NCBI GenBank assembly: GCA_964592105.1
Contig: CAZQBL010000016.1
Location: 2,560 to 66,559 of the forward strand
DNA length: 64,000 nt
Direction of reading: 5' to 3'
From: an uncultured Gammaproteobacteria bacterium
GTDB taxonomy: Bacteria > Patescibacteriota > Patescibacteriia > UBA10025 > JAHIVO01
The notes beneath the pieces were generated by a model, which was not told where the DNA came from, did no database searches, and saw nothing but the letters and a program-made list of their open reading frames with translations. This document shows, piece by piece, positions 19,140-43,633 of this stretch (its first letter is position 1; each line of letters opens with the position of its first letter). Both the position numbers and the translations under genes were made by a program.

Positions 19140-22100
19140 ATGATATTTAGCGGGCTTCGGAAAAAAATATCAGACAGATTTCATAAATCTACGAAACTCT
19201 TTTCATTGAGCGCGTTTTCGGTGGCGGCAATTTTTTTATTAGGTGTAATTCTTATAATCATTCCCCACTCGGCCCAGGCCGGAATTGTCGAAACTTTGGG
19301 CGAGGGTCTGGCTTGGATAATTTTGCGGGTTGTTTCCTTGCTGGGAAAACTACTCGTGCTTATTATTAATTTATTTATCAACATCGCCCAGTACAATAAT
19401 TTCATCAATTCCGTGCCGGTGAGCGTGGGCTGGAGCATTGTGCGCGATGTCTGTAACATGTTTTTCATCGTGGCTCTCTTGGTTATCGCTTTTGGCACTA
19501 TTTTGAAAATCGAACGCTACCGCTACAACCGCCTGCTGGTCAACCTCATCATCATGGCCATACTTATCAATTTTTCCAAAGTCATCGCTGGTTTTTTTAT
19601 TGATTTCGGACAGGTAGTGATGATGACTTTTGTTAATGCCTTCAAAGACGCGGCCGCGGGCAATTTCACCCAGGCCTTCCGCATGAGGGAAATATTGGAG
19701 CTGCGGGATGATATTCCCGAAATTAACACCGCTGATTTTCTGGGAGCGGCCGTTTTAGCCCTAGCTATGGTGCTTATTGCCTTGGTGGTAATGATTGCTC
19801 TTTTGGTAGTGATTTTGGTCAGGATTATAATGTTGTGGATTCTGGTGGTGCTCTCCCCCTTGGCTTATCTGCTGTCGGTTTTGCCCGGCTCCTGGCAGCA
19901 GCAGTCCTCCAAGTGGTGGTCAAATTTTGGTAAATGGGTAGCTATTGGTCCGGTTCTGGCTTTTTTTGTCTGGTTGTCATTGACTGTTATCGGCGATCCG
20001 AGTGGCACCAAGGATTTTATTACTACAACCAAGGATGAGGTTAGCGCCAGCGGTCAGCTGGTAGAAACGGTAGGCAATGACAGGTTATCAGCGGCCATTA
20101 CTAAAGCCTCGTCAACTGATAACATGCTGGGATTTGCTTTGGGCATTTCCATGCTGATAATGGCGTTATTAACCGCCCAGCAAATGGGCGGGATAGCTGG
20201 AAATTTTGCGGGCAAGGCCCTAAATAAAATCCAAAGCGGTGCTATGGCCGTGACGGGCGCGCGCTGGGTTCAGGACAGATGGCGGGCTTTTCAGGGCATG
20301 CGTGAGCAAAAACGCAAAGAAAAAGCGGCCAGGTTTGGCGCCAGGGCTTATGGTATTTACGAAGGCGCTAAAAGCATCCCCGGAGCAGCGTTTAAAGCCG
20401 CGGGCAAAGGCATTGATTATGTCGCGGAGAAGGCCGGTAAAAAAATTGCTGGTGATGGCACTAGTAGATTCAGAAAGGGAGCCGGCTGGGTTGCCGAAAA
20501 AGCTATTAAAGTTGGTGCGCGCTCGTTAGTGGTTGGAGGCGCGGGCGCTTTGACTGGTGGAGCGGGTTTTGGCTTGGCGCTCGGGGGCGTCGCCACCCCG
20601 CTGGCTTTGACGACCGCCAAAATGATGAGGGAAGGCAGTAAGGGGGTAAGTGATTTTACGAAAAAATTGGAAAAAGGTTTCATGAACAGGGTCGCTGCTT
20701 CCATGACCGAAAAAGGCGATTTCGTGGATTCAAACGGAAAAGCAGTTGATTCAAGCGTGAGGGGTCATTACGCATATGATAACCGAGCCGGAGCTTATTT
20801 AAAGGATACAACCATGGCCAGGTTTAAAAATCTTGATTTACAGGGCGTTAGCTATGATGACACAGAAAAAAAATGGCAAGCTCATGTGAAGAGGTCTGAT
20901 GGTAGTATAGAAAAGATACATTTAGGAAACGACGAATTATTAACTAAAGATGGGTCGCTGGTTGATAAATATGGAAAAATTGAGGATGTTGATAACCCTG
21001 ATTTGAAGTATAAATATGATCAAGAAGCGATGACTTATTATCGGGTTAATGATCGCGGCGAAGCCGTGGATAAAGACGGAAGGATTGCCCAAAAATTAGA
21101 AGACCGCGTTTACGCTGGAGGTAAAAGGTTGCCTAAATTCGTTCAGGAACTGGGCTATGGTTGGGCTTTGGGCAGGACCCAGTCCTGGGCTTTGCGCGCC
21201 AGAGGTGAACAGGAAAGAATTAGCAAAAGTTCCCAGGAAATGATCGCGGCCGGGATTTCTCCGGAATTGATGCACCGCGGTCTTAATGATAACAATTTAT
21301 CCAATGACGCTCGTCTGGCTCGCGGTCTGGCTTTGGCGGCTAGAGACGGCTTCAAGGGTATGGACGTGTCCATGGCCCGCGCCGACGTGGAACTCATAAA
21401 GAAATTGACCGCCTCCAATACTTTATTGGCTAAAGAATTTCAGGAAAACATGTACAAGCGCTTTGCGCATTTGTACCATGATTTGTCCACGGAAACCGGC
21501 CGAGGCCAGCTGAAAAAAGCCGCGGCGGAAGGCCGGGTGGATTTAACCCGCCAGGACGATTCATCATTGACTCCAGATTTTTTGAAAGTTATGAGGGATC
21601 ATTTTGGTAAAAAATATCTATCTAAGCTGGAAGATGCCGCTTCAACTGATGATCGAGAGAAGAAGATAATCAGTTCTTTGAAGTCTTTGGTTAATGAGCT
21701 TGGCAATCAAGTAAGAGATGAAAAAGGTGATAAAAGGATTCTGCCCGATCGTTTGGCCTTGGCAAATATCAGTGGCGATCTGCCAACCGCACTGGGTCGA
21801 GTTATAAAAGATAAAGATACTGGTGAAGAGAGAATGAATCCAGAATATTCCAATAATGTCGCGGATTTCATTAAAAATGCTAAAGTTGAACATATTATCA
21901 AAATAAACCCTGATTTGATTGATATCGACGAAAACGGCCTGATAAATAATGAGGCAATTAAAAGATTGATTGATAAATATAATTTGCAAGGAGACGAGCA
22001 AGCGAAAATTGATCAGGCCAAGGCACTTATTAACGCTACGATAGAGGGCTTCAAGGCTATAGATAAAAATCAAATAAATTCCGTGCTCAGATCGAGAGAA

Positions 22101-22232
22101 GCAACACAGAGATTGAAGGTATTGATTGATAGGGTTTATAAAAAAACTCACGCAAATGAACAAGATAATGTGGATAAGCAAAATGATGGAGATCAGGATG
22201 AGGAAGAAGATAAGGGTTCAGCAATAAAATAA
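19140..22232 (+). CDS. VirB6/TrbL-like polytopic membrane protein with a long hydrophilic C-terminal extension
   Basis: The first ~350 aa carry at least 6 TM helices. A Gly/Ala-rich segment and about 550 aa of charged, coiled-coil-like sequence follow. The protein sits in a T4SS-like gene neighbourhood; the assignment rests on topology and context only. Confidence 0.45.
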   Translation: MIFSGLRKKISDRFHKSTKLFSLSAFSVAAIFLLGVILIIIPHSAQAGIVETLGEGLAWIILRVVSLLGKLLVLIINLFINIAQYNNFINSVPVSVGWSIVRDVCNMFFIVALLVIAFGTILKIERYRYNRLLVNLIIMAILINFSKVIAGFFIDFGQVVMMTFVNAFKDAAAGNFTQAFRMREILELRDDIPEINTADFLGAAVLALAMVLIALVVMIALLVVILVRIIMLWILVVLSPLAYLLSVLPGSWQQQSSKWWSNFGKWVAIGPVLAFFVWLSLTVIGDPSGTKDFITTTKDEVSASGQLVETVGNDRLSAAITKASSTDNMLGFALGISMLIMALLTAQQMGGIAGNFAGKALNKIQSGAMAVTGARWVQDRWRAFQGMREQKRKEKAARFGARAYGIYEGAKSIPGAAFKAAGKGIDYVAEKAGKKIAGDGTSRFRKGAGWVAEKAIKVGARSLVVGGAGALTGGAGFGLALGGVATPLALTTAKMMREGSKGVSDFTKKLEKGFMNRVAASMTEKGDFVDSNGKAVDSSVRGHYAYDNRAGAYLKDTTMARFKNLDLQGVSYDDTEKKWQAHVKRSDGSIEKIHLGNDELLTKDGSLVDKYGKIEDVDNPDLKYKYDQEAMTYYRVNDRGEAVDKDGRIAQKLEDRVYAGGKRLPKFVQELGYGWALGRTQSWALRARGEQERISKSSQEMIAAGISPELMHRGLNDNNLSNDARLARGLALAARDGFKGMDVSMARADVELIKKLTASNTLLAKEFQENMYKRFAHLYHDLSTETGRGQLKKAAAEGRVDLTRQDDSSLTPDFLKVMRDHFGKKYLSKLEDAASTDDREKKIISSLKSLVNELGNQVRDEKGDKRILPDRLALANISGDLPTALGRVIKDKDTGEERMNPEYSNNVADFIKNAKVEHIIKINPDLIDIDENGLINNEAIKRLIDKYNLQGDEQAKIDQAKALINATIEGFKAIDKNQINSVLRSREATQRLKVLIDRVYKKTHANEQDNVDKQNDGDQDEEEDKGSAIK

Positions 22233-25016: not shown

Positions 25017-25439
25017 ATGGATCAATTCGTTGTCCCACAATTCATCGACGTAGAAAACAAAATCATCGGTCCTTTGACCGTCAGGCAGTTTTTGACTTTT
25101 CTGGTAGGGGCCGGACTTATGTTTGTGGTTTTTAAGTTGGCCAGTTTTTGGCTGGCGGCTATAGAAAATTTGTTTATTTTTGCCCTGACCGGAGTTTTCG
25201 CTTTTTTCAAGATTAATGGCCGGCCATTTCATTATTTTGTTCTGAACATGATTCAGACTTTGCGCCGTCCGATTCTGAAAGTGTGGAATAAAGAGACATC
25301 CGTGATTCAAAAGAAAAAAGAAGACAAAAAGGAAGAGCCGCCCAAAATTATTGTTAAAAAACACGTGACCGCTTCGCGCTTAAGCGAGCTTTCGCTGGTG
25401 GTTGATACCGGCGGCGCGTATCGCGAAGGCGAAGTTTGA
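25017..25439 (+). CDS. VirB3/PrgI-like small two-TM membrane protein
   Basis: 140 aa. The motif IGPLTVRQFLTFLVGAGL is followed by two hydrophobic helices. The gene sits immediately upstream of the VirB4 ATPase gene, as virB3/prgI does in T4SS operons. Confidence 0.45.
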   Translation: MDQFVVPQFIDVENKIIGPLTVRQFLTFLVGAGLMFVVFKLASFWLAAIENLFIFALTGVFAFFKINGRPFHYFVLNMIQTLRRPILKVWNKETSVIQKKKEDKKEEPPKIIVKKHVTASRLSELSLVVDTGGAYREGEV

Positions 25440-25535
25440 TTGAGTAATGTATTATTTTAAGAAATATGAGGACCAAGACTCAAGGAAATAAATTTTATAT
25501 TATACATTATTCATAATAAATAATAAATTAAGAAC

Positions 25536-26219
25536 GTGGCTCAAGCTAAAGATAAAATTTCTAAAAAACAAACCCTGCCATCCACTCAGAAGTATTTACC
25601 TATTACCGAAATTCGAGATAATGTGATTATCATGAAAGACGGAACATTGCGCGGTGTGATTTTGGTGTCATCAATAAACTTTTCACTTAAATCGGAGGAG
25701 GAACAAAACGCCGTGATTCAAGGCTATATCCAATTTTTGAATTCTTTGGAATTTCCTTTGCAAGTTTTAGTTCAGTCGCGCAAGCTCAATATAGACGACT
25801 ATTTGGAACGGCTGAAAAACATTGAAAAAGAACAAACCAATGAACTTTTGAAGATGCAAACCAGGGAATACCGACAGTACATCGCCGAGCTGGTACAGCT
25901 GGCTGATATCATGAGTAAGAAGTTTTACATGGTGGTGCCTTTCTCCGCGGCCACCATGAAGTCCAAGGGTTTTTTTGCCCGCTTAAAAGAAGCGATTTCA
26001 CCGACTTCGGAAATTATAATCAAACAGAAAAAATTCGAAAACTACCGCTTGGAACTGGCTAAGCGCCTGGAATACATTATTGACGGTTTGAGCTCTATCG
26101 GCTTACAGGCCGTTCCTTTGGATACTCAGAGCTTGATCGAGCTTTTCTACAATACCTATAATCCGGACACATACGATCAGCAAAGGTTAGTGGACATCAA
26201 TAAACTCAATCTCGACTAA
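25536..26219 (+). CDS. VirB4/TrbE N-terminal domain encoded as a separate ORF
   Basis: LPITEIRDNVIIMKDGTLRGVILVSSINFSLKSEEEQNAVIQGYIQFLNSL...QVLVQSRK follows the conserved start of VirB4 family proteins. Compare A. tumefaciens VirB4 LPYIGHLSDHIVLLEDGSIMSIARIDGVAFELEEIE...FNTLFRNI...HLVRH. GTG start. Confidence 0.55.
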   Translation: MAQAKDKISKKQTLPSTQKYLPITEIRDNVIIMKDGTLRGVILVSSINFSLKSEEEQNAVIQGYIQFLNSLEFPLQVLVQSRKLNIDDYLERLKNIEKEQTNELLKMQTREYRQYIAELVQLADIMSKKFYMVVPFSAATMKSKGFFARLKEAISPTSEIIIKQKKFENYRLELAKRLEYIIDGLSSIGLQAVPLDTQSLIELFYNTYNPDTYDQQRLVDINKLNLD

Positions 26220-26221
26220 TT

Positions 26222-28114
26222 ATGGTGGAATTATTTCGCAAAACAAAAGTAATGCCGACCGAGACCCCGCCGGAGTTAAGCCCAGCAGAACAGCAGCAAC
26301 TGGCTCGCGAGCAGCTTGAAGAAAAAAAGGAATTATTGGAAGCGGAACGAGTTTATCGACGAGGCGTAACTACGGTTAAGGATTTAATTGCACCGGCTGC
26401 CATGAAAGTGGAGTCAAAATACTTGGAGCTTGGCTCGCAGTTCGTGCGCACGCTTTTTGTGGTCACTTACCCGCGTTATATCCGGGTAGGTTGGTTCGCG
26501 CCCATTATCAATCTCAACGTGCCTTTGGATATAGCCATGTATTATTATCCTATCGGCTCCGAAGTTATTCTAAAACAATTAAGGAATAAGGTCGGCGCTT
26601 TGGAGGCGCAAATATTGTCAGACGCGGAAAAAGGAGCCCCGCGCGATCCTATCCGCGAAACAGCTTTGCGGGATATTGAAAAATTACGTGATGATTTGAC
26701 CCAGGGCGTGGAGAGATTTTTCCAATTCGCCCTGTATGTGACTCTTTACGCGGGTAGCAAGGATGAGCTGGATAAGATATCCGAAAAAGTGGAATCATTA
26801 TTCGGTTCCAAGCTGGTTTATACCAAACGCGTGCTGTATCAGTCCGAGCAAGGGTTCAACTCTACTTTGCCTTTGGCTAATGATGAACTAGGTATCAGTT
26901 TCAATCTTTCTACTTCTCCATGCGCCTCGTCTTTTCCTTTCATTTCTTCGGAACTTACTTCTGACAACGGTATTCTTTACGGCATCAACCGCCATAATAA
27001 CAGTTTAATTTTGTTTGACCGATTTTCTTTGCAAAATGCTAATTCAGTAGTCTTTGCCACTTCCGGCGCCGGAAAAAGTTACGCCGTAAAACTGGAAATT
27101 TTGCGAAGTATGATGTTGGGCACGGACGTTATTGTTATCGACCCGGAAATGGAATACAAATATTTATCCGACGCGGTCGGCGGCACTTACATTAATATTT
27201 CATTAAGTTCAGAAAGCAAAATAAATCCTTTTGACCTGCCTCGCCCTACCCGCAAAGATGAAAAAACATCGGATATAATTCGTTCGGCGGTTATTACCTT
27301 AAAAGGTCTTTTGCGTCTAATGTTAGGTCAATTTACACACGAAGAAGATTCACTTGTTGATCGGGCGCTTATCGAAACATATGCCAAAAAAGATATTACC
27401 AGCGATTCGGATTTAACTCATATTGAGCCGCCAATTTTCAAGGATTTTGAGGAAGTGCTGGAAGGTATGGTCGGAGCTGAAGATCTGGTAGTGCGGTTGA
27501 AAAAATACACCGAGGGTACTTTCGCCGGTCTGCTGAACAATCCAACCAACGTGGAACTGAATAATCAGCTGGTGGTTTTTTCCGTGCGCGATCTGGAGGA
27601 CGAATTAAAACCAGTAGGCATCTCCCTGATCGTGTCTTATATTTGGAATGTGGTTCGCTCCAGACTGAAAAAGCGTATCATGGTTATTGACGAAGGTTGG
27701 TGGTTGATGCAACAGGAAGATTCGGCCAAGTTCATTTATGCCCTGGTCAAGCGCTGCCGTAAGTATTATTTGGGAGTTACGACCATTACTCAGGATGTGA
27801 ACGATTTTTTACGCTCTCCATACGGCCAGGCGATAGTTACCAATTCATCCATACAGTTGCTAATGAAACAATCCCCGGCGGCCATCGATCTTATTGCCAA
27901 AACTTTTTTACTGACCGAAGGTGAAAAATACCTTCTTCTGGAATGCGGCGTGGGCGAGGGTATATTCTTTGCCGGTTCAAAACATGCCGCCATTAAAATC
28001 GTAGCTTCCTATACCGAAGATCAAATAATCACTTCCGATCCTAGGCAGCTTTTGGAGATTGAGCAAGCCAAGAAAGAGTTTGATCAGGCGCAGATGCAAC
28101 AGACACAAGGGTAG
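26222..28114 (+). CDS. virB4: VirB4/TrbE/CagE-family type IV secretion ATPase (central and C-terminal part)
   Basis: Walker A is FATSGAGKSYAVK and Walker B is IMVIDEGWWLM. VirB4-type blocks VTYPRYIRVGWFAPI and GVTTITQDVNDF are present. Confidence 0.85.
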   Translation: MVELFRKTKVMPTETPPELSPAEQQQLAREQLEEKKELLEAERVYRRGVTTVKDLIAPAAMKVESKYLELGSQFVRTLFVVTYPRYIRVGWFAPIINLNVPLDIAMYYYPIGSEVILKQLRNKVGALEAQILSDAEKGAPRDPIRETALRDIEKLRDDLTQGVERFFQFALYVTLYAGSKDELDKISEKVESLFGSKLVYTKRVLYQSEQGFNSTLPLANDELGISFNLSTSPCASSFPFISSELTSDNGILYGINRHNNSLILFDRFSLQNANSVVFATSGAGKSYAVKLEILRSMMLGTDVIVIDPEMEYKYLSDAVGGTYINISLSSESKINPFDLPRPTRKDEKTSDIIRSAVITLKGLLRLMLGQFTHEEDSLVDRALIETYAKKDITSDSDLTHIEPPIFKDFEEVLEGMVGAEDLVVRLKKYTEGTFAGLLNNPTNVELNNQLVVFSVRDLEDELKPVGISLIVSYIWNVVRSRLKKRIMVIDEGWWLMQQEDSAKFIYALVKRCRKYYLGVTTITQDVNDFLRSPYGQAIVTNSSIQLLMKQSPAAIDLIAKTFLLTEGEKYLLLECGVGEGIFFAGSKHAAIKIVASYTEDQIITSDPRQLLEIEQAKKEFDQAQMQQTQG

Positions 28115-28337
28115 TCGTTCGGAGGGACGTCGTCCTGGGTAAACGACCGAATAATCCTCATTCACGGAATTGATTTCACGTGAAGCAAATCAAGATTTAC
28201 ACCGTATATAAATTAACCAAACTGGAAAGATTTGACTGATTTCATATTACATATTATAAATGGATTAATAAAGATTCTTCGCTCCGCTCAGAATGGCGAT
28301 GGTGGGCACATAATAATCAAAATAATAAATTATTTAT

Positions 28338-28916
28338 ATGGTCATGACCGAAAATAATAAAAGGATATTAATCGTTGTTGTTGTAGTTGTGATTGTCGCC
28401 GCGGCTTTCGTGATTTGGTGGTTGACACGACCAGCCGAAGAAATAATCGGCAACACCAATACCACGCCCGTGAACAACGCCCAAACTGTAGTTATCAACA
28501 CCAATACCGCCGCCAACCAGAATACCAACGCTCAAACCGAAGAGCAGGTAGCCATGGTGCGTTTGGCCAATCTTTTTACTGAGCGCTTCGGCAGCTATTC
28601 TTCTGAAGCGGAATTTCAGAATATTATTGATTTGAAAAAGTTTATGACGACTAAAATGCAATCTTGGGCCGATACTTACGTGACCACGCATAAAAAAACT
28701 CTTAATAGTCAAAGCACCTTTATATCCATAACTACCAAAGTGCTGTCAACTACAGTAAACAGTTTTTCGGATAAAAAAGCCGAGGTTCGCTCCACGACTT
28801 CGCGGGTTGAGGAGGGAGAAAATACCAATGACGTTAGAGCCTATAATCAGGATATTGTTTTACAGCTTGTAAAACAGGGGAATGACTGGAAAGTAGATAG
28901 TGCCTTTTGGCAATAA
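28338..28916 (+). CDS. membrane-anchored protein, possibly VirB8/PrgL-like (NTF2-like fold)
   Basis: An N-terminal TM helix, an Asn/Thr/Gln-rich linker, then a globular domain of about 120 aa that ends in W. The call rests on position downstream of virB4 and on topology; sequence similarity is not demonstrable by eye. Confidence 0.3.
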   Translation: MVMTENNKRILIVVVVVVIVAAAFVIWWLTRPAEEIIGNTNTTPVNNAQTVVINTNTAANQNTNAQTEEQVAMVRLANLFTERFGSYSSEAEFQNIIDLKKFMTTKMQSWADTYVTTHKKTLNSQSTFISITTKVLSTTVNSFSDKKAEVRSTTSRVEEGENTNDVRAYNQDIVLQLVKQGNDWKVDSAFWQ

Positions 28917-28928
28917 ACTAACATCAAT

Positions 28929-29774
28929 ATGGCCATAGATTCCGCCGACAAACCCCAGTGGCTGAAGGACATGAATAAAAGGACTTCGGATTATGAGCGT
29001 GACATGAAAAGGCATTTGAATGAGGTCGAGAGGAAATCCAAAAAACCGGTGGATAATGCTTTGGAGCACGACAGGACTTTTCATGAAACTAAGCAGGAGC
29101 ATGACCGCCAATTCATGAAGCAAAAAATCGCTGAATACAGCCCGGAAGCCATGAGTAGCCGCGAGACCCAGATGAGAAGAGAGTATCTCCGGGCAAAACA
29201 GCAGGAGTACCTTAATATTCCTTCCCCCGGCCAAACAGAAGAGAGTGAGGAAGAAGAAGGGGCCAAGGAAAGTGGTGGAGAAACAGCGCTGGAGGAACAA
29301 CAGGGCGGCATCAAAGGCGCCTTGGCTCGCCAGAAACAGAAAGACAGTATGGCCTTGGAACAGGCCAACAAAGCCAAAGCTGCTCTGGCGGCCGGTGAAA
29401 TCGGAGAGTTGGATGCCACGGTGGTTATTAAATATAAGCTTTTATGGAGCTATGTACATGAGTTTTTTGAGGATTTAGCGCTTTCGTTTTTTGATATAAT
29501 GCTGTTTACCGGACCTTTGTGCGTGGCTTTCTTTCTGTTCAGGATATTGGGCATGTTGAGCATCGGCAGAATGTTTACAATAAATTTCAAAGACGTGAAA
29601 GTTCCTCTGGTGCCGACGTTTAGTATGGCCGAGGTGCCATTACGGGTGGGAAAAACACTGCTTATTGCCGTTATCAGCGGAACCATCTGGTTATTAATAA
29701 TATTTGCCGCCTGGGTCGTGACGCATCAATTGGAGTTTACTTGGGAGTCGATTAAGGCCTTTCTCGGAATTTAA
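28929..29774 (+). CDS. hypothetical protein with charged coiled-coil N-terminus and two C-terminal TM helices
   Basis: ORF-track protein with hydrophobic segments FTGPLCVAFFLFRILGML and LLIAVISGTIWLLIIFAAWVV. Confidence 0.4.
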   Translation: MAIDSADKPQWLKDMNKRTSDYERDMKRHLNEVERKSKKPVDNALEHDRTFHETKQEHDRQFMKQKIAEYSPEAMSSRETQMRREYLRAKQQEYLNIPSPGQTEESEEEEGAKESGGETALEEQQGGIKGALARQKQKDSMALEQANKAKAALAAGEIGELDATVVIKYKLLWSYVHEFFEDLALSFFDIMLFTGPLCVAFFLFRILGMLSIGRMFTINFKDVKVPLVPTFSMAEVPLRVGKTLLIAVISGTIWLLIIFAAWVVTHQLEFTWESIKAFLGI

Positions 29775-29829
29775 AAAAATTTATAAGCAATTTATTCATC
29801 CTGAAGTAAATTTTATATAATAATAATCT

Positions 29830-31032
29830 ATGACAACGCGCCGAATTTTTCTTCTGGCCATGGTAACTTATTTTATCCTTATCACCATCCTGTTTTTAGT
29901 TATGCCCCAGCTGGTGCGCGCGGCCGATACTTCAGTAGATAACAGTTGCAAAATAGGCAGCTCCAAAGAGGAAAAAGAGGCGGCCATCCGAGTAGCCATT
30001 CCTTTGCCGGGAGTAACCCAAAAAGTAACAATTTCAAATACGGAGTCATATAATGCCGTTAAAAATTTGTCCTGCTATTTGTCCGGCTTTTACCGTTATT
30101 TTGCCGGGGTGGCCGGTATTTTGGCCACGGTGATGATTATGTACGGGGGAATTCAGTACGTGATTTCTTTCGGCAATTCGGGCCGCTTGCAAGCGGCCAA
30201 AGACACTATTTTTTCGGCTATGGTCGGACTGGTTATTACCCTGGGTTCATATATTATTCTTTTTACAATCAATCCTAATTTAGTAACCCTAAAATTGCCG
30301 GAAGTTGGTAAGATTTATACTATTAACATAGATACCGATTGGTGTTTGTCTTCGGCTGGAGATATGCCTGTAGTCCCGGGCAGCACAGGCTGCGGCGATA
30401 AGGGCTTGCATACTGAAAATGGAACCCAGACAGAATGCATTTGGCAGGGTGATTGCGGGCAGAGTGGTCAAATTTGTTTCTATGGGCTTGGAGGTTATAA
30501 ATGTCGGGACCCCAAGGATACGTGTAAAAGTAGCTATAGCGATTTATGCCAGCAGGTCAGTCGCGCGATATATGCCGCCGGACTTACTTCTGGGGCCTGT
30601 GCGTCCAAGCCGCCCGACAGCCAGGAATGCGCCTGGGAAGAGCAGCTGCGTTGCCCGGACAACTGGGTCAGGGTAGACTGCACTTTTCACGGCATCGGTG
30701 ATCTCATTTCGACTCCCTGCACTGAAGTATTGGATAGTGTAAAATATTATTCTCTTGGTGGAGGCATGTTTCCCACGTTTTGTTTTGATTTCAGTGAGCG
30801 CCCGGTGGCTGCAGCCAACATTGAGTCAATCTGTTGCGCAGAACAGAGAGACATAGACTGCCGCTGGCCAAAAGGTAGGGGGCCGCTATTTGGGAACGAG
30901 ATCAATAGCAACGAAGTCCAGGTTGACTGCGCCCAATATCCCCCCCAACAATATCCGAACGCCTGTACTCAAGACGAGATTAGGCAGGGGATGATCTGCG
31001 CTATGCAGCTCGAACAACGTAATCGTAATTAA
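29830..31032 (+). CDS. pilin-like (VirB2/TrbC-like two-helix module) membrane protein with large cysteine-rich extracellular domain
   Basis: A signal/TM segment is followed by GVAGILATVMIMYGGIQYVISFGNSGRLQAAKDTIFSAMVGLVITLGSYIILFTINPNLV. This module is paralogous to the one in the gene at 32305. The ~250 C-terminal aa contain about 20 Cys. Confidence 0.5.
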   Translation: MTTRRIFLLAMVTYFILITILFLVMPQLVRAADTSVDNSCKIGSSKEEKEAAIRVAIPLPGVTQKVTISNTESYNAVKNLSCYLSGFYRYFAGVAGILATVMIMYGGIQYVISFGNSGRLQAAKDTIFSAMVGLVITLGSYIILFTINPNLVTLKLPEVGKIYTINIDTDWCLSSAGDMPVVPGSTGCGDKGLHTENGTQTECIWQGDCGQSGQICFYGLGGYKCRDPKDTCKSSYSDLCQQVSRAIYAAGLTSGACASKPPDSQECAWEEQLRCPDNWVRVDCTFHGIGDLISTPCTEVLDSVKYYSLGGGMFPTFCFDFSERPVAAANIESICCAEQRDIDCRWPKGRGPLFGNEINSNEVQVDCAQYPPQQYPNACTQDEIRQGMICAMQLEQRNRN

Positions 31033-31041
31033 TAATTTTTT

Positions 31042-32304
31042 ATGAATAAAAAAGCTCTCTATATAATACTTTTCGTCATAGCCACTTTGGCTTTCGCCGT
31101 ACTGATTTATCTCGTTTTTATAAAAGATTTGGTCGAGACGGCCACGAATGATAACGCTAATACCAACACGGCCCAAAATACCAACGGCGGTGGCTTACCG
31201 ATAATCAACGGCACAACAAGCGCCAATATAAATGCCGTATCTTTAAATACCAATAAGGTTATCACCAATACTATGGCCAGCAATGTTAACGGCCAGATGA
31301 TTTCCAATATTGCCAGCGGCGGACCTACTTCAGTCAAGCCGGTTGTTGACGCCCCGGTCGCTTCCGTCAAGCTCTCCACGGACGGTAATTTGAATTACTA
31401 TGATAAAAACCAGGGTAAATTTTATCGCGTAGACAAAAACGGTCAGGCCGTTGAATTGACCGATCAGCTTTTTCCCGAGGCCAAGGAAATTGCCTGGTCG
31501 CCGGCCGGTGATAAGGTGGTGGTCACCTTCCCTGATTTAAGAAAAATAATGTATGATTTCAACACCAAAAAACAGGCGACTTTGCCCAAAGAATGGGTAG
31601 ATGTTGAATTTTCACAATCGGGTGACAAGCTTGGGTTTAAAAATATGGCTGCTAATGAGGATGATCGCTGGCTGCAAATATCCAATCCTGACGGCACTGA
31701 GGTCCAATCCATTGAGCCTATCGGCGATAAAGGCGGTGATGTGGCGATCAACTGGTCGCCCAATAATCAGGTAGTGGCTACCTTTCGGCAGAGCGTTAAT
31801 GCTGACCAACAGGAAGTGCTGTTGATAGGGCTGCATGGGGAAAATTTTAAATCATTGCTGACCGAGGGTCGTGGTTTTGAAGCTCAGTGGTCCCCCAGCG
31901 GCGAACAGATGATTTACAGTGTTTACAACGAATCGACCGCCTATAATCCTAATCTTTATATTGTAGACGCGCAGGGAGACGAGATAGGCGCCAATAGAAT
32001 TAATTTAGGACTTCAAACTTGGCCGGATAAATGTACTTTTTCTAAGAGTAGCCCGACTTTATATTGCGCCGTACCCAGCAATCTGCCCGATGGTTCTGGT
32101 TTATCCCGAAGTTTGGCTGCCGGTACGACCGATACTATTTATGCTATCAACACTAACACCGGAGCCAAAAGCCCGGTGGCCTTACCGGTTTCAAGTAGTT
32201 TAAAGAAATACTCAATCAGTTCACTATTTTTATCAGAGGACGACAGTCTTTTGTATTTTCAGGACGCGACAACCGGGAAGGTTTATAAAATGCAGTTAAA
32301 GTAA
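31042..32304 (+). CDS. membrane-anchored PD40/TolB-like beta-propeller protein
   Basis: An N-terminal TM and an Asn/Thr-rich linker are followed by repeated WSP..D motifs: IAWSPAGDKVVVTF, INWSPNNQVVATF and AQWSPSGEQMIYSV. Confidence 0.55.
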   Translation: MNKKALYIILFVIATLAFAVLIYLVFIKDLVETATNDNANTNTAQNTNGGGLPIINGTTSANINAVSLNTNKVITNTMASNVNGQMISNIASGGPTSVKPVVDAPVASVKLSTDGNLNYYDKNQGKFYRVDKNGQAVELTDQLFPEAKEIAWSPAGDKVVVTFPDLRKIMYDFNTKKQATLPKEWVDVEFSQSGDKLGFKNMAANEDDRWLQISNPDGTEVQSIEPIGDKGGDVAINWSPNNQVVATFRQSVNADQQEVLLIGLHGENFKSLLTEGRGFEAQWSPSGEQMIYSVYNESTAYNPNLYIVDAQGDEIGANRINLGLQTWPDKCTFSKSSPTLYCAVPSNLPDGSGLSRSLAAGTTDTIYAINTNTGAKSPVALPVSSSLKKYSISSLFLSEDDSLLYFQDATTGKVYKMQLK

Positions 32305-33654
32305 ATGTTTGTTTTTAGGCCCACTGAAAAAATTTTGTGGTTGGGATTATGGCTAGCATTAATTTTTGCATTAATTCCGTTACATCAGGCCCTGGCCGAT
32401 TGCTGTTATGGCGGGGCTGGCCTTTGCGGTCTGCCGGATCCAGTGGAGCGCAGTTGTACAAATGGCTGGTCTTATTTGCCCGGTGACTGTCCGCAGGACT
32501 GCAACCAGCCGGCGCCCGGCGCGCTCATTCAATGCTGTATTTGTCAGCCCTCAACGCCTGGTGAGATCGTAGTTTGTGGCAAACCGGTGACCGACGCTGA
32601 ATTTCCCTGCGGCGCTTCATTGGATTGCCGGCAGAGCCAGTTTTCATGCCAAGATCTAAATAATAATCCACAATGCGCAGAGTGGCTGAAAATAAGCGGT
32701 GAAACCGAGAAGTCTGAGTCACTGTTTTTTGAATTAAATTTTTCTATACCGGGCTCTGAGATATTTAACGCTGGCAAGTCCATAAAGATAACTGGCGCTA
32801 CTTTAGGAGAATATATTGTGGCGCTTTATGTTTTTTTGGTTGGCGTCGGCGGTATCTTGGCTACGATCATGATGATGTGGGGAGGTTTACGGTACGTGGT
32901 TTCCGGAGGCAGTCCCCAGCGGATTTCAGAGGCCAAAGACCAGATCACTGCCGCACTCTCTGGCTTTATAATCTTATTGGCTTCTTATTTGTTGTTATTA
33001 ACGATCAATCCCAACTTGGTGAAGTTCGAGGGATTGTCCGGCGTCAGACCGGTCGAGCAAATTCTCCAAAGCCTGGAGAGCAAGTCAAGCTCGGCTAAAG
33101 GCATGCCGCCGGTTAAGTGGGAAGGAGACAACGTTTCCTGTTTTGATAAGGAAATAACTGATATTGCCGCTCAAAAAGGCGTTGACCGGAACTGGCTAAA
33201 GGCCATAATGCTGGTTGAATCGTCTGGCCATGAAAAAATAGTTTCTTCAGCCGGGGCATGCGGCCTGATGCAGCTTTTGCCGCAAACCGCTAATAAATCC
33301 TGTACGGAATTGAAAGACCCCATTACCAATATTACGGCCGGGGCCGATTATTTTCTCTTCCTTAAGCAGAATGCCTGCCCCAGAGAAAATGCCAAGCATC
33401 CATGTAATTGGGGGCCGGTTTGTGATATTACGAATATGGATTTTGTGCTCGCCGCTTATAACGGCGGGCCGGGAGCTAACTGGTGCAGCGTGACCTGTAA
33501 ACAAGAAACCTGGTGGCAGTGTATCGGAAATCCTGGGTATGCAGAAACCAGAAACTATGTTATTAAGGTAAAACAAGCTTATGATAAAGTCAGCAGTGGT
33601 CTCGTTCCGTTTGTGTGGCAGCCAGATGAAACTTGTACTGGTATTGATGGATAA
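32305..33654 (+). CDS. cysteine-rich protein with pilin-like two-helix membrane module fused to a VirB1-type soluble lytic transglycosylase (SLT) domain
   Basis: SLT motifs LVESSGHEKIVSSAGACGLMQL, ITAGADYF and AAYNGGPGA. Upstream module GVGGILATIMMMWGGLRYVVSGGSPQRISEAKDQITAALSGFIILLASYLLLLTINPNLV. An N-terminal signal peptide plus a Cys-rich domain. Confidence 0.7.
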   Translation: MFVFRPTEKILWLGLWLALIFALIPLHQALADCCYGGAGLCGLPDPVERSCTNGWSYLPGDCPQDCNQPAPGALIQCCICQPSTPGEIVVCGKPVTDAEFPCGASLDCRQSQFSCQDLNNNPQCAEWLKISGETEKSESLFFELNFSIPGSEIFNAGKSIKITGATLGEYIVALYVFLVGVGGILATIMMMWGGLRYVVSGGSPQRISEAKDQITAALSGFIILLASYLLLLTINPNLVKFEGLSGVRPVEQILQSLESKSSSAKGMPPVKWEGDNVSCFDKEITDIAAQKGVDRNWLKAIMLVESSGHEKIVSSAGACGLMQLLPQTANKSCTELKDPITNITAGADYFLFLKQNACPRENAKHPCNWGPVCDITNMDFVLAAYNGGPGANWCSVTCKQETWWQCIGNPGYAETRNYVIKVKQAYDKVSSGLVPFVWQPDETCTGIDG

Positions 33655-38542: not shown

Positions 38543-38657
38543 TCTATCATTAGATGAGGCGTCTCGTGTTTATCGGGGGGCGAGCCTGCAAGACCATCAT
38601 TGGTCTTATGGTTTTATCTCTTCTACATCTTTTTAAATTGGGACGGGGTCCTGCGCA

Positions 38658-38747
38658 TGGCGGTGGGAGCAGGATTCGAACCTGCGGTTCCCTTGCAGGA
38701 ACTCTGGTTTTCAAGACCAGCTCGTTAAACCGCTCCGACATCCCACC
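38658..38747 (-). tRNA. tRNA-Ser(TGA)
   Basis: Reverse complement GGTGGGATGTCGGAGCGGTTTAACGAGCTGGTCTTGAAAACCAGAG-long variable arm-GCAGGTTCGAATCCTGCTCCCACCGCCA. The anticodon loop is CTTGAAA and the extra arm is long. The 3' CCA is encoded. Confidence 0.85.
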
Positions 38748-38962
38748 GCCATTGGCGGGACAAGGCCGTTCCCTTCAACCACCGTGGCACTCCGCTTTGA
38801 TATCTGTTTTAACGGCTCGGTATGCCTCCATTTAATTTTGAATTCGGAAGGGGCGAGATTAGGCTTCGGCTTTCGCTGTCTTTCGCCATTCCCACCAACC
38901 TCATTCCGTTCGGGACTGGATCTCCGTCTGCGCTCCGATCGACTCTCAAATGAATTTTAGTT

Positions 38963-42453: not shown

Positions 42454-42592
42454 AATTTAATAAAAAGGTTATTTTAGGTTATTTTATGTGTAAAGTATAT
42501 TATACTAACCAGACATTATCAAGTCAATTCAGAAAGACTTCAAAAGGCCTAACCATACTTTGGTCGGCTGGGTAAGCTGTATTGATAATAGT

Positions 42593-42730
42593 TTATATGT
42601 TGGTCAGTGCCAAAACGATGGTCGCCAAGGCGACGAAGCCGGCAAAGATCATGATTCCGACGGTGATTTTGGTCGAGGTGGCCGTTTTGGTGGCCACTTC
42701 ACTTGCCAGAGCAGGTTTATCGTTATTCAT
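42593..42730 (-). CDS. small (45 aa) single-TM protein downstream of htpX, not in ORF track
   Basis: Manual translation gives MNNDKPALASEVATKTATSTKITVGIMIFAGFVALATIVLALTNI. The ATG lies 6 nt after the htpX stop on the same strand. The C-terminal hydrophobic helix is clean. Confidence 0.3.
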   Translation of the reverse strand: MNNDKPALASEVATKTATSTKITVGIMIFAGFVALATIVLALTNI

Positions 42731-42736
42731 AATTAT

Positions 42737-43633
42737 TTAATTATTGATCGAACCCATCTGGCGTAAGGCGGCTATGCGTTTGTCAATAGGTGGATGAGTA
42801 GAAAAGAGGTTACTAAGGCCGCCAGCCATCGGGTTGGCGATGTAGAGATGCGCGGTTGAGTGCGTAGCCCGTTCGATGCGCGCGCCTTGGTTTTTAATTT
42901 TTTCTAAAGCCGAGGCCAGGCCTTCGGGATAACGGGTGAGCAAGGCGCCAGTAGCATCGGCCAGATATTCCCGTTTGCGCGATACGGCCAGACGGATGAG
43001 CTGGGCGATGATTGGCGACAGTATCAATAATAACAGCCCGACTAGAAAAAAAATGTTCCCGCCTGGGTCACGGTTATCGCGTCGGCCTCCGATAAATCTG
43101 GTGCGCCAGAAAATATCCGAAAGCATCATGATGGTTCCAACTAAAACAATCACCAGAGTCATATAGCGAATATCATAGTTGCCGATGTGCGACATTTCAT
43201 GGGCAATGACTCCTTCTAGCTCCTCGTTGGTCAATTTGGCGATCGCACCTTGAGTTACGGCAATTGAGGAGTGTTTTGGATCACGGCCGGTAGCAAAAGC
43301 GTTGATGTCTTCGTCGGGAATGATATAGACCCTAGGCATAGGCAGACCGGCGGTGATGGCTAAATTTTCCACCAGGCGCACTACATAGGGGTTTTGTTCT
43401 TTGGTAACAGGTTGGGCGCCTGAAGTCCAGAGGGCTATTTTATCGCCAGAGTAATAGCCAACCAGCGCAATTATCAAGGCGTATAGAAAGGCAATGATAA
43501 TCCAGAAATAACCGCCTGTGCCTTCAATCTGATCAATGGCGTAACCAAGGCTGATAAGGACAGCAAAACAAACAACCATTAGTATTATTGACCTGCGTTT
43601 GTTTGAGGCTATATGTGTGTAGATGGTGGGCAT
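42737..43633 (-). CDS. htpX: membrane zinc metalloprotease HtpX (M48 family)
   Basis: The HEXXH motif VIAHEMSHIGNYD, N-terminal TM helices and the downstream Glu-containing segment typical of M48. Confidence 0.9.
   Translation of the reverse strand: MPTIYTHIASNKRRSIILMVVCFAVLISLGYAIDQIEGTGGYFWIIIAFLYALIIALVGYYSGDKIALWTSGAQPVTKEQNPYVVRLVENLAITAGLPMPRVYIIPDEDINAFATGRDPKHSSIAVTQGAIAKLTNEELEGVIAHEMSHIGNYDIRYMTLVIVLVGTIMMLSDIFWRTRFIGGRRDNRDPGGNIFFLVGLLLLILSPIIAQLIRLAVSRKREYLADATGALLTRYPEGLASALEKIKNQGARIERATHSTAHLYIANPMAGGLSNLFSTHPPIDKRIAALRQMGSINN

What the first reader, a model, noticed from the sequence alone, without database searches (positions are those of the whole stretch)
29830..33654. 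Paralogous pilin-like two-helix membrane module embedded in large cysteine-rich proteins, one fused to a lytic transglycosylase
The proteins at 29830 and 32305 share a ~60-aa module of about 60% identity: hydrophobic helix, GG..Y(V)(I/V)S.G...(R/Q)...AKD.I, hydrophobic helix, TINPNLV. The module has the shape of VirB2/TrbC-type conjugative pilins. Unlike ~100-aa pilins, these are 400 and 449 aa and carry 20-plus-Cys extracellular domains. In the second protein the module is followed by an SLT domain (ESSG...GLMQL...AYNGGPG). A pilin-like anchor that tethers a peptidoglycan hydrolase is an unusual architecture.
Basis: partly seen in the sequence, partly recalled or inferred. Interest (0 to 1): 0.6.

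Follow-up and report, generated by a model that had tools for sequence, protein, structure and literature searches.

The report
Secretion-system pilins carrying wall-cutting and variable domains
Two neighbouring genes in the type IV secretion operon of an ultrasmall (Patescibacteria/CPR) bacterium encode complete VirB2-like pilins enlarged by extracellular cysteine-rich domains. One carries a cell-wall-cutting enzyme and the other a fast-changing surface domain, which suggests how these host-dependent bacteria cut through cell walls and may recognise hosts.

Summary
ORF A (29830-31032, 400 aa, 22 Cys) and ORF B (32305-33654, 449 aa, 24 Cys) share a two-helix module: 34/60 identical in the core, BLASTP E=8e-19.

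The module is a complete member of Pfam PF18895 (T4SS_pilin). A profile built from it retrieves about 130-aa standalone CPR pilins, some of which also hit TrbC/VirB2. B also carries a true family-1 SLT domain, with the ES, GLMQ and AYNGG motifs and an MltE/MltC-like fold.

Both genes sit in a chromosomal T4SS operon (PrgI, TrsD, VirB4, ..., A, beta-propeller, B, radA) that is conserved in more than 20 Patescibacteria genomes. Module-then-SLT in one ORF occurs in 57 of 59 species-level genomes recovered. In other lineages the neighbouring pilin-module gene carries a VanY/M15 or NlpC/P60 hydrolase.

The module is the best-conserved part of both proteins, which argues against a passive anchor. 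A's C-terminal 20-Cys domain is a hypervariable cassette: 28% identity where the flanks are 84-90%.

Best reading: these are extended, minor or tip-type T4SS pilins. B combines VirB2 and VirB1 functions; A is a variable surface or host-recognition subunit. Pilus incorporation is not shown.

The architecture is common in databases, but I found no description of it in the papers I could search. I rate it a new variant of a known kind, of moderate interest.

The parts
29830..31032 (+). ORF A: extended T4SS pilin (400 aa, 22 Cys) made of signal peptide, short N-extension, pilin module and hypervariable Cys-rich C-domain
29830..29922 (+). A residues 1-31: signal peptide (basic n-region, hydrophobic core, VRA|AD)
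   Evidence: aligned signal peptides of homologues
29923..30075 (+). A residues 32-82: N-extension/pre-module with conserved Cys40 and Cys82 and the PLPG motif shared with standalone pilins
   Evidence: pLDDT about 90
30076..30288 (+). A residues 83-153: pilin module (helix, GG..Y.IS.G..R...AKD loop, helix, TINPNLV)
30298..31029 (+). A residues 157-400: extracellular 20-Cys domain, a hypervariable cassette. DNA homology to the closest relative (L062) stops at 30299 and resumes at 31042.
   Evidence: no fold or sequence match
31042..32304 (+). Membrane-anchored TolB-like beta-propeller (420 aa), always found between A and B in the syntenic loci
32305..33654 (+). ORF B: extended T4SS pilin fused to a lytic transglycosylase (449 aa, 24 Cys)
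32305..32397 (+). B residues 1-31: signal peptide (ALA|DC)
32398..32709 (+). B residues 32-135: N-terminal 14-Cys extracellular domain. It varies in length across homologues and is absent in some, but is 81% conserved in the closest relative.
32710..33024 (+). B residues 136-240: pre-module (IPGS motif) plus pilin module
33025..33144 (+). B residues 241-280: low-confidence, poorly conserved linker
   Evidence: pLDDT below 50 for 243-260; 26% conservation
33145..33651 (+). B residues 281-449: SLT (family 1 lytic transglycosylase) domain with catalytic E305-S306, ACGLMQL, AAYNGGPGAN, and a lineage-specific Cys-stapled C-terminal motif
25017..28114 (+). T4SS core: PrgI/VirB3-like (25017-25439), TrsD/TraC-like N-domain of VirB4 (25536-26219), VirB4 ATPase (26222-28114)
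28338..29774 (+). Two operon genes of unknown role: 192-aa single-pass membrane protein (conserved in 25 loci) and 281-aa protein with C-terminal hydrophobic helices
10987..22232 (+). Upstream, and its membership of the locus is inferred only from adjacency: a 2714-aa secreted protein with 113 Cys and CBM_4_9 domains, and a 1030-aa polytopic membrane protein that I suspect is VirB6-like
   Evidence: the polytopic protein has no Pfam/NCBIfam match, but tblastn relatives lie upstream of PrgI-TrsD-VirB4 in L037, L039 and L054

Best explanation
A and B are enlarged members of the VirB2-like pilin family (Pfam PF18895) of the chromosomal type IV secretion system of a Patescibacteria (CPR) bacterium, probably of class ABY1.

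Shown: each contains a complete pilin (signal peptide, PLPG/IPGS pre-module, two long helices, basic loop, INPNLV end). The pilin aligns end to end with about 130-aa standalone pilins. Both are fixed members of a conserved PrgI-TrsD-VirB4 operon. B carries an intact family-1 lytic transglycosylase.

Inferred topology: the signal peptide is cleaved after Sec export, helix 1 runs out-to-in, the R/K-containing loop is cytoplasmic, and helix 2 runs in-to-out. All Cys-rich domains and the SLT would then be extracellular and disulfide-bonded.

Inferred mechanism: the pilin module is not a passive anchor. It is the element that the T4SS platform recognises (VirB6-like/PrgI/VirB4). B therefore supplies VirB1-type peptidoglycan cleavage exactly where the machine or filament crosses a wall, acting as a VirB2-VirB1 fusion. 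A places a rapidly diversifying, non-catalytic, disulfide-rich domain on the surface, most likely for contact with or recognition of a host or partner cell.

Favoured sub-model, about 0.4 on its own: both are minor pilins incorporated first, so they end up at the distal end of a short T4SS pilus or stalk. That would fill the tip role for which no VirB5 was reported for the Patescibacteria-type T4SS in the survey I read.
For: Family assignment:
- PF18895 hits for A and B.
- All 35 module relatives match PF18895, and 13 of 35 weakly match TrbC/VirB2.
- The module profile finds 261 proteins; the best 120 are all 76-153-aa pilins.
- An HMM built only from those small pilins hits A at 4.2e-23 and B at 1.1e-22.

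T4SS context:
- PrgI, TrsD and VirB4 lie immediately upstream.
- The order u435-PrgI-TrsD-VirB4-u192-A-propeller-B-radA-recG is seen in more than 20 genomes in which B is only 33-51% identical.
- There is no strong + strand terminator between the genes, and gaps are 0-56 nt from u192 to radA.

SLT:
- Pfam 66.3 bits.
- E305, S306, G320, Q323, Y385, N386 and G388 are invariant in 44 sequences.
- pLDDT is above 90, and Foldseek's top hits are MltE, MltC, MltF and Slt70.

More than an anchor:
- Across 22 syntenic genomes the module is 59% (A) and 53% (B) identical. This compares with SLT 47%, the TM anchors of neighbouring genes 26% and 43%, and the signal peptides 18-20%.
- The same complete pilin module is fused to three different peptidoglycan-hydrolase classes: SLT, VanY/Peptidase_M15 and NlpC/P60.
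- In other lineages the pilin-SLT gene heads arrays of small pilin genes, for example L053 with 7 in a row.

Variable domain of A:
- Compared with a relative whose operon proteins are 83-93% identical, A's signal peptide, N-extension and module are 84-90% identical but the C-domain only 28%. DNA similarity is lost exactly between 30299 and 31042.
- Four alleles with 84-91% identical N-parts have 28-41% identical C-parts.
- Only Cys positions are conserved in that domain.
- The domain occurs only in this pilin family among 1.84 billion representative proteins.

Literature:
- CPR T4SSs with VirB2-like pilin arrays are essential for epibiotic growth in S. epibionticum (PMC10633639, PMC12102498, PMC12857230).
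- In the canonical system VirB2 is recruited by VirB3/VirB6, extracted using VirB4, and the pilus grows beneath a pre-assembled tip (PMC12624023).
Against: - No experiment shows that any PF18895 protein forms a filament. The reviews call it a possibility only (PMC12857230).
- A's Pfam score is 0.1 bit below the gathering cut-off.
- Homology to classical TrbC/VirB2 is only sub-threshold for A and B themselves: 13.1 bits for the B module. A profile search of PDB sequences did not retrieve any solved VirB2/TraA pilin.
- Fold search cannot discriminate a helical hairpin.
- From my own estimate of conjugative-pilus packing, ectodomains of 210-250 aa on every subunit cannot fit in a homopolymer. Any filament role therefore requires a minor or tip position, or a separate major pilin. 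No small pilin gene lies within 10 kb in the ABY1-type loci or anywhere in this 64-kb window.
- Gram-positive VirB1-like hydrolases work while simply membrane-anchored.
- Disulfide bonding, signal-peptide cleavage and enzyme activity are all inferred.
Confidence: 0.7

Rival explanations
1. Passive anchor model. The two-helix module only tethers the ectodomains to the bacterium's own membrane. B is an ordinary VirB1-type hydrolase that opens the bacterium's own wall for T4SS assembly. A is a surface protein. Neither is ever handled as a pilin or leaves the membrane.
For: - Gram-positive T4SS hydrolases such as PrgK are membrane-anchored and act on the donor wall (PMC11323569 abstract; PMC12102498).
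- B has a roughly 40-aa low-confidence linker that could let a tethered SLT reach the wall.
- No small major pilin lies near the ABY1-type operons.
- Large domains at both ends of B are awkward for polymerisation (inference).
Against: - The module is a complete pilin, not just hydrophobic helices.
- The module is more conserved than the enzyme domain, and far more than true TM anchors in the same operon.
- The same module is fused independently to SLT, M15/VanY and NlpC/P60 domains, and sits at the head of small-pilin arrays in other lineages.
Confidence: 0.2
2. Polymorphic toxin or effector model for A. The conserved N-part is a delivery module and the swapped C-terminal cassette is a toxin or effector domain exported by the T4SS.
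For: There is a sharp recombination-like boundary between the conserved N-part and the variable C-part, as in polymorphic toxin loci.
Against: - No variable immunity-like gene follows. DNA homology resumes exactly at the start of the conserved beta-propeller gene, which is 84.5% identical.
- The C-domain has 18-20 Cys, and only Cys positions are conserved; there is no catalytic-type conserved residue.
- No toxin family matched in Pfam or PDB.
- A domain with many disulfides suits an extracellular binding role, not delivery into a cytoplasm (inference).
Confidence: 0.05
3. Housekeeping cell-wall enzymes unrelated to secretion. B is a membrane-bound lytic transglycosylase for the bacterium's own growth or division, A is an unrelated envelope protein, and the linkage to VirB4 is incidental.
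For: - CPR genomes carry many surface hydrolases (PMC11665869).
- In roughly half of the recovered loci, mostly distant lineages, no VirB4 was detected within 10 kb of the pilin-SLT gene.
Against: - The gene order with PrgI-TrsD-VirB4 is strictly conserved in more than 20 genomes despite 33-51% protein identity.
- The membrane part belongs to a family whose members cluster with virB4 in 1135 assemblies (PMC12102498).
- The genes are tightly spaced, as in an operon.
Confidence: 0.05

Closest known systems
Patescibacterial VirB2-like T4SS pilins (Pfam PF18895), e.g. the essential pilin array SEML1_0014-0019 of Southlakia epibionticum (PMC10633639; surveyed in PMC12102498)
   Same: Same Pfam family. 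Same layout of signal peptide, two helices and INPNLV-type end. Same association with PrgI/TrsD/VirB4. Paralogous copies lie in one locus.
   Different: The described pilins are about 110-150 aa. A and B are 400 and 449 aa, with extracellular Cys-rich domains and, in B, an enzyme. In the ABY1-type loci they are the only pilin-module genes near virB4.
VirB1-type T4SS peptidoglycan hydrolases: Agrobacterium VirB1, and Gram-positive PrgK (pCF10) and TraG (pIP501)
   Same: SLT-family lytic transglycosylase encoded inside a T4SS operon, presumed to open peptidoglycan for the machine (PMC12624023, PMC11323569).
   Different: The known ones are periplasmic, or have a plain N-terminal TM anchor, and combine SLT with CHAP/LytM in one chain. 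Here the SLT hangs on a complete pilin. In related CPR lineages the peptidase partner (M15/VanY or NlpC/P60) is on a second pilin-module protein. PMC12102498 states that most CPR genomes with VirB2 lack a detectable VirB1. Pilin-SLT fusions such as B could account for part of that gap; I did not test this with their profiles.
VirB5 tip complex of Gram-negative T4SS pili
   Same: Possible functional analogy only: a subunit pre-assembled on the VirB6 platform that ends at the distal tip and meets the recipient (PMC12624023).
   Different: No sequence or fold relationship. The tip location of A and B is a hypothesis.
Initiator/tip minor pilins of type IV pili that carry large C-terminal domains (e.g. 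CofB, TcpB) - from my own knowledge, not tested here
   Same: A pilin domain followed by a large extra domain, encoded beside the major pilin genes and proposed to prime assembly and sit at the tip.
   Different: An unrelated pilin fold and a different machine (type IV pilus, not T4SS).

Membership tests
Pfam PF18895 T4SS_pilin (Patescibacterial VirB2-like pilin) | Profile match at or above the gathering score (26.6 bits) | tested here: met
   B scores 38.1 bits as a whole protein and 42 bits as the isolated module. A scores 26.5 bits, 0.1 below the cut-off, but has a precomputed PF18895 hit on record, is paralogous to B at E=8e-19, and is hit at 4.2e-23 by an HMM built from standalone pilins.
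Pfam PF18895 T4SS_pilin (Patescibacterial VirB2-like pilin) | Signal peptide followed by two long hydrophobic helices joined by a short polar, basic loop | tested here: met
   Hydropathy segments. AlphaFold2 hairpins at A 80-112/117-147 and B 164-199/204-234 with pLDDT about 90. End-to-end alignment with standalone pilins.
Pfam PF18895 T4SS_pilin (Patescibacterial VirB2-like pilin) | Encoded next to virB4/prgI-type T4SS genes | tested here: met
   PrgI, TrsD and VirB4 lie 1.7-4.8 kb upstream on the same strand. The synteny holds in more than 20 genomes.
Pfam PF18895 T4SS_pilin (Patescibacterial VirB2-like pilin) | Small size typical of pilins (about 100-150 aa) | tested here: not met
   A and B are 400 and 449 aa. 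The best 120 module-profile hits are 76-153 aa.
Pfam PF18895 T4SS_pilin (Patescibacterial VirB2-like pilin) | Polymerises into an extracellular filament | not testable with these tools
   Not shown for any member of the family, according to PMC12857230.
TrbC/VirB2 pilins (Pfam PF04956) | Profile match at or above the gathering score (27.9 bits) | tested here: not met
   The B module scores 13.1 bits, E=0.12. Thirteen of 35 relatives give weak hits, best E=8.7e-4. A related pilin-VanY fusion in L040 reaches 27.9 bits, and several standalone relatives carry both PF18895 and PF04956 hits. Remote homology is therefore plausible but not demonstrated for A and B.
TrbC/VirB2 pilins (Pfam PF04956) | Sequence similarity to a structurally solved conjugative pilin | tested here: not met
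   A profile search of PDB sequences returned only a chance PsbZ hit, E=0.25. Foldseek of model A gave nothing below E=0.7.
Family 1 lytic transglycosylases (Pfam PF01464 SLT) | Profile match above the gathering score | tested here: met
   66.3 bits against a cut-off of 21.3, residues 287-393.
Family 1 lytic transglycosylases (Pfam PF01464 SLT) | Catalytic Glu in the E-S motif, plus the GLMQ and AYNGG motifs | tested here: met
   E305, S306, G320, Q323, Y385, N386 and G388 are invariant in 44 homologues.
Family 1 lytic transglycosylases (Pfam PF01464 SLT) | Goose-lysozyme-like SLT fold | tested here: met
   pLDDT above 90 over 281-431. Foldseek hits MltE, MltC, MltF and Slt70 at E 1.6e-6 to 1e-5, probability 1.00.
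Family 1 lytic transglycosylases (Pfam PF01464 SLT) | Produces 1,6-anhydro-MurNAc ends from peptidoglycan | not testable with these tools
   Needs an enzyme assay.
VirB1-like T4SS component | Match to the CONJScan VirB1/TrsG/CD419 profiles used to define it | not tested
   Those profiles are not available here. NCBIfam gave only sub-threshold generic lytic transglycosylase hits.
Diversity-generating retroelement target protein (considered for A's variable C-domain) | A template/variable repeat pair and a nearby reverse transcriptase | tested here: not met
   No direct repeat of 40 nt or more involves 30300-31040 anywhere in the 64-kb window. No reverse transcriptase was found among the ORFs I scanned; five ORFs of the gene list (852-1685, 38554-38835, 42560-42766, 44356-44883, 53477-62779) were not scanned.

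The most novel reading that the evidence does not exclude
The CPR type IV secretion system builds a short pilus or stalk whose first-incorporated subunits are these extended pilins. B, together with the pilin-peptidase fusions of other lineages, would form a peptidoglycan-cutting 'drill head' that opens first the bacterium's own wall and then the host's. A would be the tip adhesin, and its swappable disulfide-rich cassette would set host specificity. This would make the pilin a carrier for enzymes and receptors. It would also give a concrete mechanism for how ultrasmall epibionts breach and choose their hosts.
Probability: 0.3. Interest if true: 0.8.

Novelty: new variant of a known kind. Interest (0 to 1): 0.5.

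Why it matters
The T4SS of Patescibacteria is essential for epibiotic growth in the one species tested. Its function is called 'completely unknown', and it is unclear whether it makes a pilus (PMC11665869, PMC12857230).

A conserved fusion of the pilin to a lytic transglycosylase links the pilin pathway directly to wall penetration. So do the fusions to M15 and NlpC/P60 peptidases in sister lineages. Fusions of this kind could also account for some of the 'missing VirB1' noted in the survey of 3,035 genomes (PMC12102498), although I did not test that.

The hypervariable cassette on the second pilin is a candidate host-range determinant. It can be followed in metagenomes and tested by binding assays.

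Both ideas can be tested directly: enzyme assays on the SLT domain, localisation of the ectodomains, and structure prediction of pilin oligomers.

Tried and rejected
- **Solved pilin structures.** A sequence-profile search of all PDB chains with the module alignment, meant to reach VirB2/TraA/TrbC structures, returned only a chance PsbZ hit.
- **Fold searches with model A.** Foldseek against PDB and the viral BFVD library gave no match below E=0.3. A helical hairpin is too generic, and the Cys-rich domain has no recognisable fold.
- **A's C-domain by sequence.** Nothing in PDB. Only 10 relatives among 1.84 billion representative proteins, all in the same architecture.
- **DGR hypothesis for A's variable domain.** Rejected; no template/variable repeat.
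- **Shared Cys-rich domains.** A's C-domain, B's N-domain and the 2714-aa Cys-rich protein show no detectable similarity by phmmer, so homology among them is rejected.
- **NCBIfam.** No pilin model hits A or B; B gets only sub-threshold lytic transglycosylase models.
- **Source record.** An exact look-up of A's contig failed. B's look-up returned only a 13-kb Logan contig with no taxonomy.
- **Literature.** Five searches found no paper describing pilin-SLT or other pilin-hydrolase fusions. The library lacks most subscription journals, so this is not proof of absence.

Full report
**1. The observation**

The two ORFs are as described: A at 29830-31032 (400 aa) and B at 32305-33654 (449 aa), both on the + strand. 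A has 22 Cys and B has 24 (5.5% and 5.3%). The cytoplasmic and membrane proteins of the same gene cluster have 0-3 Cys.

BLASTP of A against B gives one significant alignment: 40% identity over 124 aa, E=8e-19. From YLSGFY/YIVALY to TINPNLV, 36 of 70 residues are identical.

Each protein starts with a signal-peptide-like segment, A ending ...LVRA|AD and B ...QALA|DC. Each contains two long hydrophobic helices, which AlphaFold2 models as a hairpin with pLDDT about 90. Every predicted extracellular segment has an even number of Cys (A 2 + 20; B 14 + 10), and the hairpin has none.

Six-frame scans with two independent profiles find only these two copies of the module in the 64-kb window.

**2. 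What the module is**

[quoted passage not shown] B scores 38.1 bits against a gathering score of 26.6. A scores 26.5, a hair below, but the protein database has a precomputed PF18895 hit on record for A.

I built an alignment of 35 non-redundant module sequences from homologues of A and B:
- All 35 match PF18895.
- TrbC/VirB2 (PF04956) is the second most frequent match, always sub-threshold: 13 of 35, best E=8.7e-4.
- Used as a profile against 5.8 billion proteins, the alignment finds 261 proteins. The best 120 are all 76-153 aa standalone PF18895 proteins, at E down to 6.5e-24, and several also carry PF04956 hits.
- An HMM built only from those small proteins hits A at 4.2e-23 and B at 1.1e-22.

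An alignment of A and B with 15 standalone pilins shows that the whole mature pilin is present in both. That includes the PLPG/IPGS pre-module, helix 1 with the GG motif, the basic loop with AK(D), helix 2, and the TINPxLV end. Standalone pilins stop 5-25 residues after that motif.

A and B are therefore complete pilins with extra domains. A has a 245-residue C-terminal domain. B has a 104-residue domain inserted after the signal peptide, and a linker plus SLT domain at the C-terminus.

A direct link to structurally solved VirB2/TraA pilins could not be made by sequence profile or by fold search. The 'VirB2-like' label rests on the Pfam families and on the literature.

**3. The SLT domain**

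- B residues 287-393 match PF01464 at 66.3 bits.
- In an alignment of 44 homologues the catalytic E305-S306, G320 and Q323 of ACGLMQL, and Y385, N386 and G388 of AAYNGG are invariant. So is a lineage-specific C-terminal motif with conserved Cys and Trp.
- The model has pLDDT above 90 across 281-431.
- Foldseek's best PDB hits are MltE, MltC, MltF and Slt70, at E 1.6e-6 to 1e-5 and probability 1.00.

Enzyme activity itself is inferred.

**4. Genomic context**

Upstream on the same strand lie:
- a PrgI/VirB3-like gene (25017-25439);
- a TrsD/TraC-like gene corresponding to the N-domain of VirB4 (25536-26219);
- the VirB4 ATPase (26222-28114);
- a 192-aa single-pass membrane protein and a 281-aa protein.

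A follows, then a membrane-anchored TolB-like beta-propeller, then B. From the 192-aa gene to radA the gaps are 0-56 nt, and no strong + strand terminator lies between the genes.

Further upstream are a 1030-aa polytopic membrane protein and a 2714-aa secreted protein with 113 Cys and CBM_4_9 domains. I suspect the polytopic protein is VirB6-like. It has no Pfam or NCBIfam match, but its tblastn relatives lie upstream of PrgI-TrsD-VirB4 in three other loci. Downstream are radA, a dksA-like gene, recG, a comF-like gene and clpB.

This is the context that Quinonero-Coronel et al. describe for class ABY1 of Patescibacteria, where T4SS loci lie with comF, recG and radA (PMC12102498). The homologues are named Patescibacteria, Kerfeldbacteria, Falkowbacteria, Parcubacteria and the like.

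**5. Conservation elsewhere**

A scan of one genome per GTDB species, using a single SLT peptide pattern, recovered 59 loci. In 57 of them the pilin module and the SLT domain are in one ORF, always with the module first.

In more than 20 of them the order u435-PrgI-TrsD-VirB4-u192-A-propeller-B-radA-recG(-) is preserved, although B is only 33-51% identical. Those loci contain exactly two pilin-module ORFs, both large (328-576 aa and 356-700 aa). No small pilin gene lies within 10 kb.

Other lineages (Paceibacteria-type and others) differ in two ways:
- The pilin-SLT gene is followed by a second pilin-module protein of about 300-385 aa, whose C-terminal domain is VanY/Peptidase_M15 in four of the ten tested and NlpC/P60 in one. 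One of these reaches the TrbC/VirB2 gathering score.
- It can also be followed by arrays of small pilin genes. L053 has seven module genes in a row, of 380, 323, 124, 146, 122, 115 and 130 aa.

A pilin plus NlpC/P60 protein also turned up among A's homologues. So the complete pilin module is fused repeatedly to three classes of peptidoglycan hydrolase.

**6. More than an anchor?**

Across 22 syntenic genomes I measured mean identity to the window protein by region:

| Region | Mean identity |
|---|---|
| Pilin module of A | 59% |
| Pilin module of B | 53% |
| SLT domain of B | 47% |
| TM anchor of the beta-propeller | 43% |
| TM anchor of the 192-aa protein | 26% |
| B linker | 26% |
| Signal peptides | 18-20% |
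| PrgI (whole protein, for comparison) | 60% |

A passive membrane tether would be expected to evolve like the other TM anchors. The module instead evolves like a core machine component. This argues for specific protein contacts, either with the T4SS platform or with other pilins.

**7. The variable domain of A**

A close relative is available as locus L062. Its 192-aa, 281-aa, propeller, B, RadA and RecG proteins are 83-93% identical to the window's; its DksA-like protein is 68%. In A, the signal peptide, N-extension and module are 87%, 84% and 90% identical, but the C-domain is only 28% identical, with many gaps. B's N-terminal Cys-rich domain is 81% identical.

At the DNA level, similarity runs from 28213 to 30299 and resumes at 31042, the start of the propeller gene. 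Nothing is detectable in between.

Four alleles whose N-parts are 84-91% identical have C-parts only 28-41% identical. That is no better than between lineages whose N-parts are 52-58% identical. All keep 18 or 20 Cys. In the family alignment only Cys positions are conserved in this domain.

Among 1.84 billion representative proteins the domain has 10 relatives. All have the match in the same position of 329-423-aa proteins, apart from one 224-aa hit that looks like a fragment.

No DGR-type repeat is present. No variable gene follows that could be an immunity gene. The domain has no Pfam, PDB or fold match. This is the signature of a surface domain under diversifying selection or cassette exchange, as in receptor-binding proteins.

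**8. How it most likely works**

Shown:
- Family membership of the module.
- An intact SLT catalytic apparatus.
- Fixed membership of a T4SS operon.
- High conservation of the module.
- Hypervariability of A's C-domain.

Inferred from sequence:
- Sec export and signal-peptide cleavage.
- Helix 1 running out-to-in, the R/K-containing loop in the cytoplasm, and helix 2 running in-to-out.
- All Cys-rich domains and the SLT outside the cell and disulfide-bonded.

Inferred from the canonical system: VirB2 is recruited by VirB3 and VirB6, extracted with energy from VirB4, and polymerised beneath a pre-assembled tip (PMC12624023). The module would then be the handle by which the platform takes up these proteins.

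From my own knowledge of conjugative pilus structures, both termini of VirB2-type pilins lie on the outer surface of the filament and the inter-helix loop lines the lumen. Appended domains would therefore be displayed outward. My rough packing estimate says that 210-250-residue domains on every subunit cannot fit in a homopolymer. That leaves either a minor or tip position, or no extraction from the membrane at all.

I favour the tip model, at about 0.4 on its own. In this model the first-incorporated extended pilins carry the transglycosylase, and in other lineages the peptidase, ahead of a growing stalk, and they expose A's variable domain at the surface. The reasons are:
- the module is a complete, strongly conserved pilin;
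- it has been fused to several hydrolase classes;
- such genes head small-pilin arrays in other lineages;
- no VirB5 is reported for the Patescibacteria-type T4SS in PMC12102498, apart from one genome whose VirB4 is of the Gram-negative MPF-T type.

The tethered-enzyme alternative, a VirB1 analogue acting only on the bacterium's own wall, remains a serious rival at about 0.2-0.35, depending on how strictly 'anchor' is meant.

**9. Comparison with what is known**

The CPR T4SS, its VirB2-like pilins and its pilin arrays are published. The pilins are essential in Southlakia epibionticum (PMC10633639; supplement), and they were surveyed over 3,035 genomes (PMC12102498). Reviews call the possible pilus 'intriguing' (PMC12857230) and the function of the system 'completely unknown' (PMC11665869).

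None of the papers I could search mentions pilins fused to SLT or to other hydrolases, or a hypervariable Cys-rich pilin domain. The survey states that most genomes with VirB2 lack VirB1. Fusions such as B could account for part of that gap; I did not test this with their profiles.

Databases already annotate relatives automatically as 'pilin' or 'lytic transglycosylase domain-containing protein', so the sequences themselves are not new.

**10. Verdict**

I file the finding as a new variant of a known kind: extended VirB2-like pilins of the Patescibacterial T4SS, one of them a VirB2-VirB1 fusion and the other carrying a hypervariable ectodomain.

Interest is moderate at 0.5. The family and the system are known, and the architecture is common in CPR genomes. 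It nevertheless offers a concrete, testable handle on what this essential and enigmatic secretion system does.

Noticed in passing
window 10987-19131: A 2714-aa secreted protein with 113 Cys (4.2%) and two CBM_4_9 carbohydrate-binding hits lies directly upstream of the suspected VirB6-like gene. It may be a giant adhesin of the same T4SS locus. It shows no detectable similarity to the Cys-rich domains of A or B.
   Followed up: partly
window 19140-22232: A 1030-aa polytopic membrane protein has no Pfam or NCBIfam match. Its position suggests an 'extended VirB6'. Relatives lie upstream of PrgI-TrsD-VirB4 in L037, L039 and L054.
   Followed up: partly
window 25445-25496 and 8768-8819: A 52-nt direct repeat (77% identity). 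One copy is the start of a 23S rRNA intervening-sequence protein gene (8770-9087, PF05635). The other, in the PrgI/TrsD intergenic gap, reads as a 14-codon remnant of the same N-terminus (MYYFKKYEDQDSRK*). At a comparable place (between VirB4 and the 192-aa gene) the close relative L062 carries a GIY-YIG gene, so small selfish genes seem to visit this operon.
   Followed up: partly
window 25536-28114: VirB4 is split into a TrsD/TraC-like N-domain protein (227 aa, GTG start) and the ATPase (630 aa). The stop and the next start are 2 nt apart. The same split is seen in L001.
   Followed up: partly
window 31042-32304: A TolB-like beta-propeller with an N-terminal TM helix always lies between the two pilin-module genes in the ABY1-type loci (found in 31 of the 61 loci held at the time). 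Its role in the T4SS is unknown.
   Followed up: partly
L040, L043, L046, L054 (about 10.8-12.2 kb in L043/L054; 2.6-4.4 kb in L040; 6.3-7.3 kb in L046): In other CPR lineages the gene next to pilin-SLT encodes a pilin module fused to VanY/Peptidase_M15 or NlpC/P60. The L040 protein reaches the TrbC/VirB2 gathering score (27.9 bits).
   Followed up: partly
L053 4077-8170: Seven pilin-module genes in a row (380, 323, 124, 146, 122, 115, 130 aa), headed by the pilin-SLT fusion. This links the fusions to the published 'pilin arrays'.
   Followed up: partly
window 45026-62779: Four consecutive large secreted proteins (692, 1315, 698 and 3100 aa). The first three gave only weak DUF6454 hits or none; the 3100-aa one was not scanned against Pfam. 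A PilM (type IV pilus) gene follows at 62862-63980.
   Followed up: no
window 1758-3062 (-): A LysM-LysM-Peptidase_M23 protein lies 23 kb upstream of virB4. It is the kind of protein the published survey counted among VirB1-associated domain combinations.
   Followed up: no
L060 (PXDL01000537.1, labelled Balneolia): A 2.5-kb contig binned as Balneolia carries an SLT fragment and a pilin-module ORF in adjacent frames. This is probably a mis-binned Patescibacteria contig or a frameshift.
   Followed up: no
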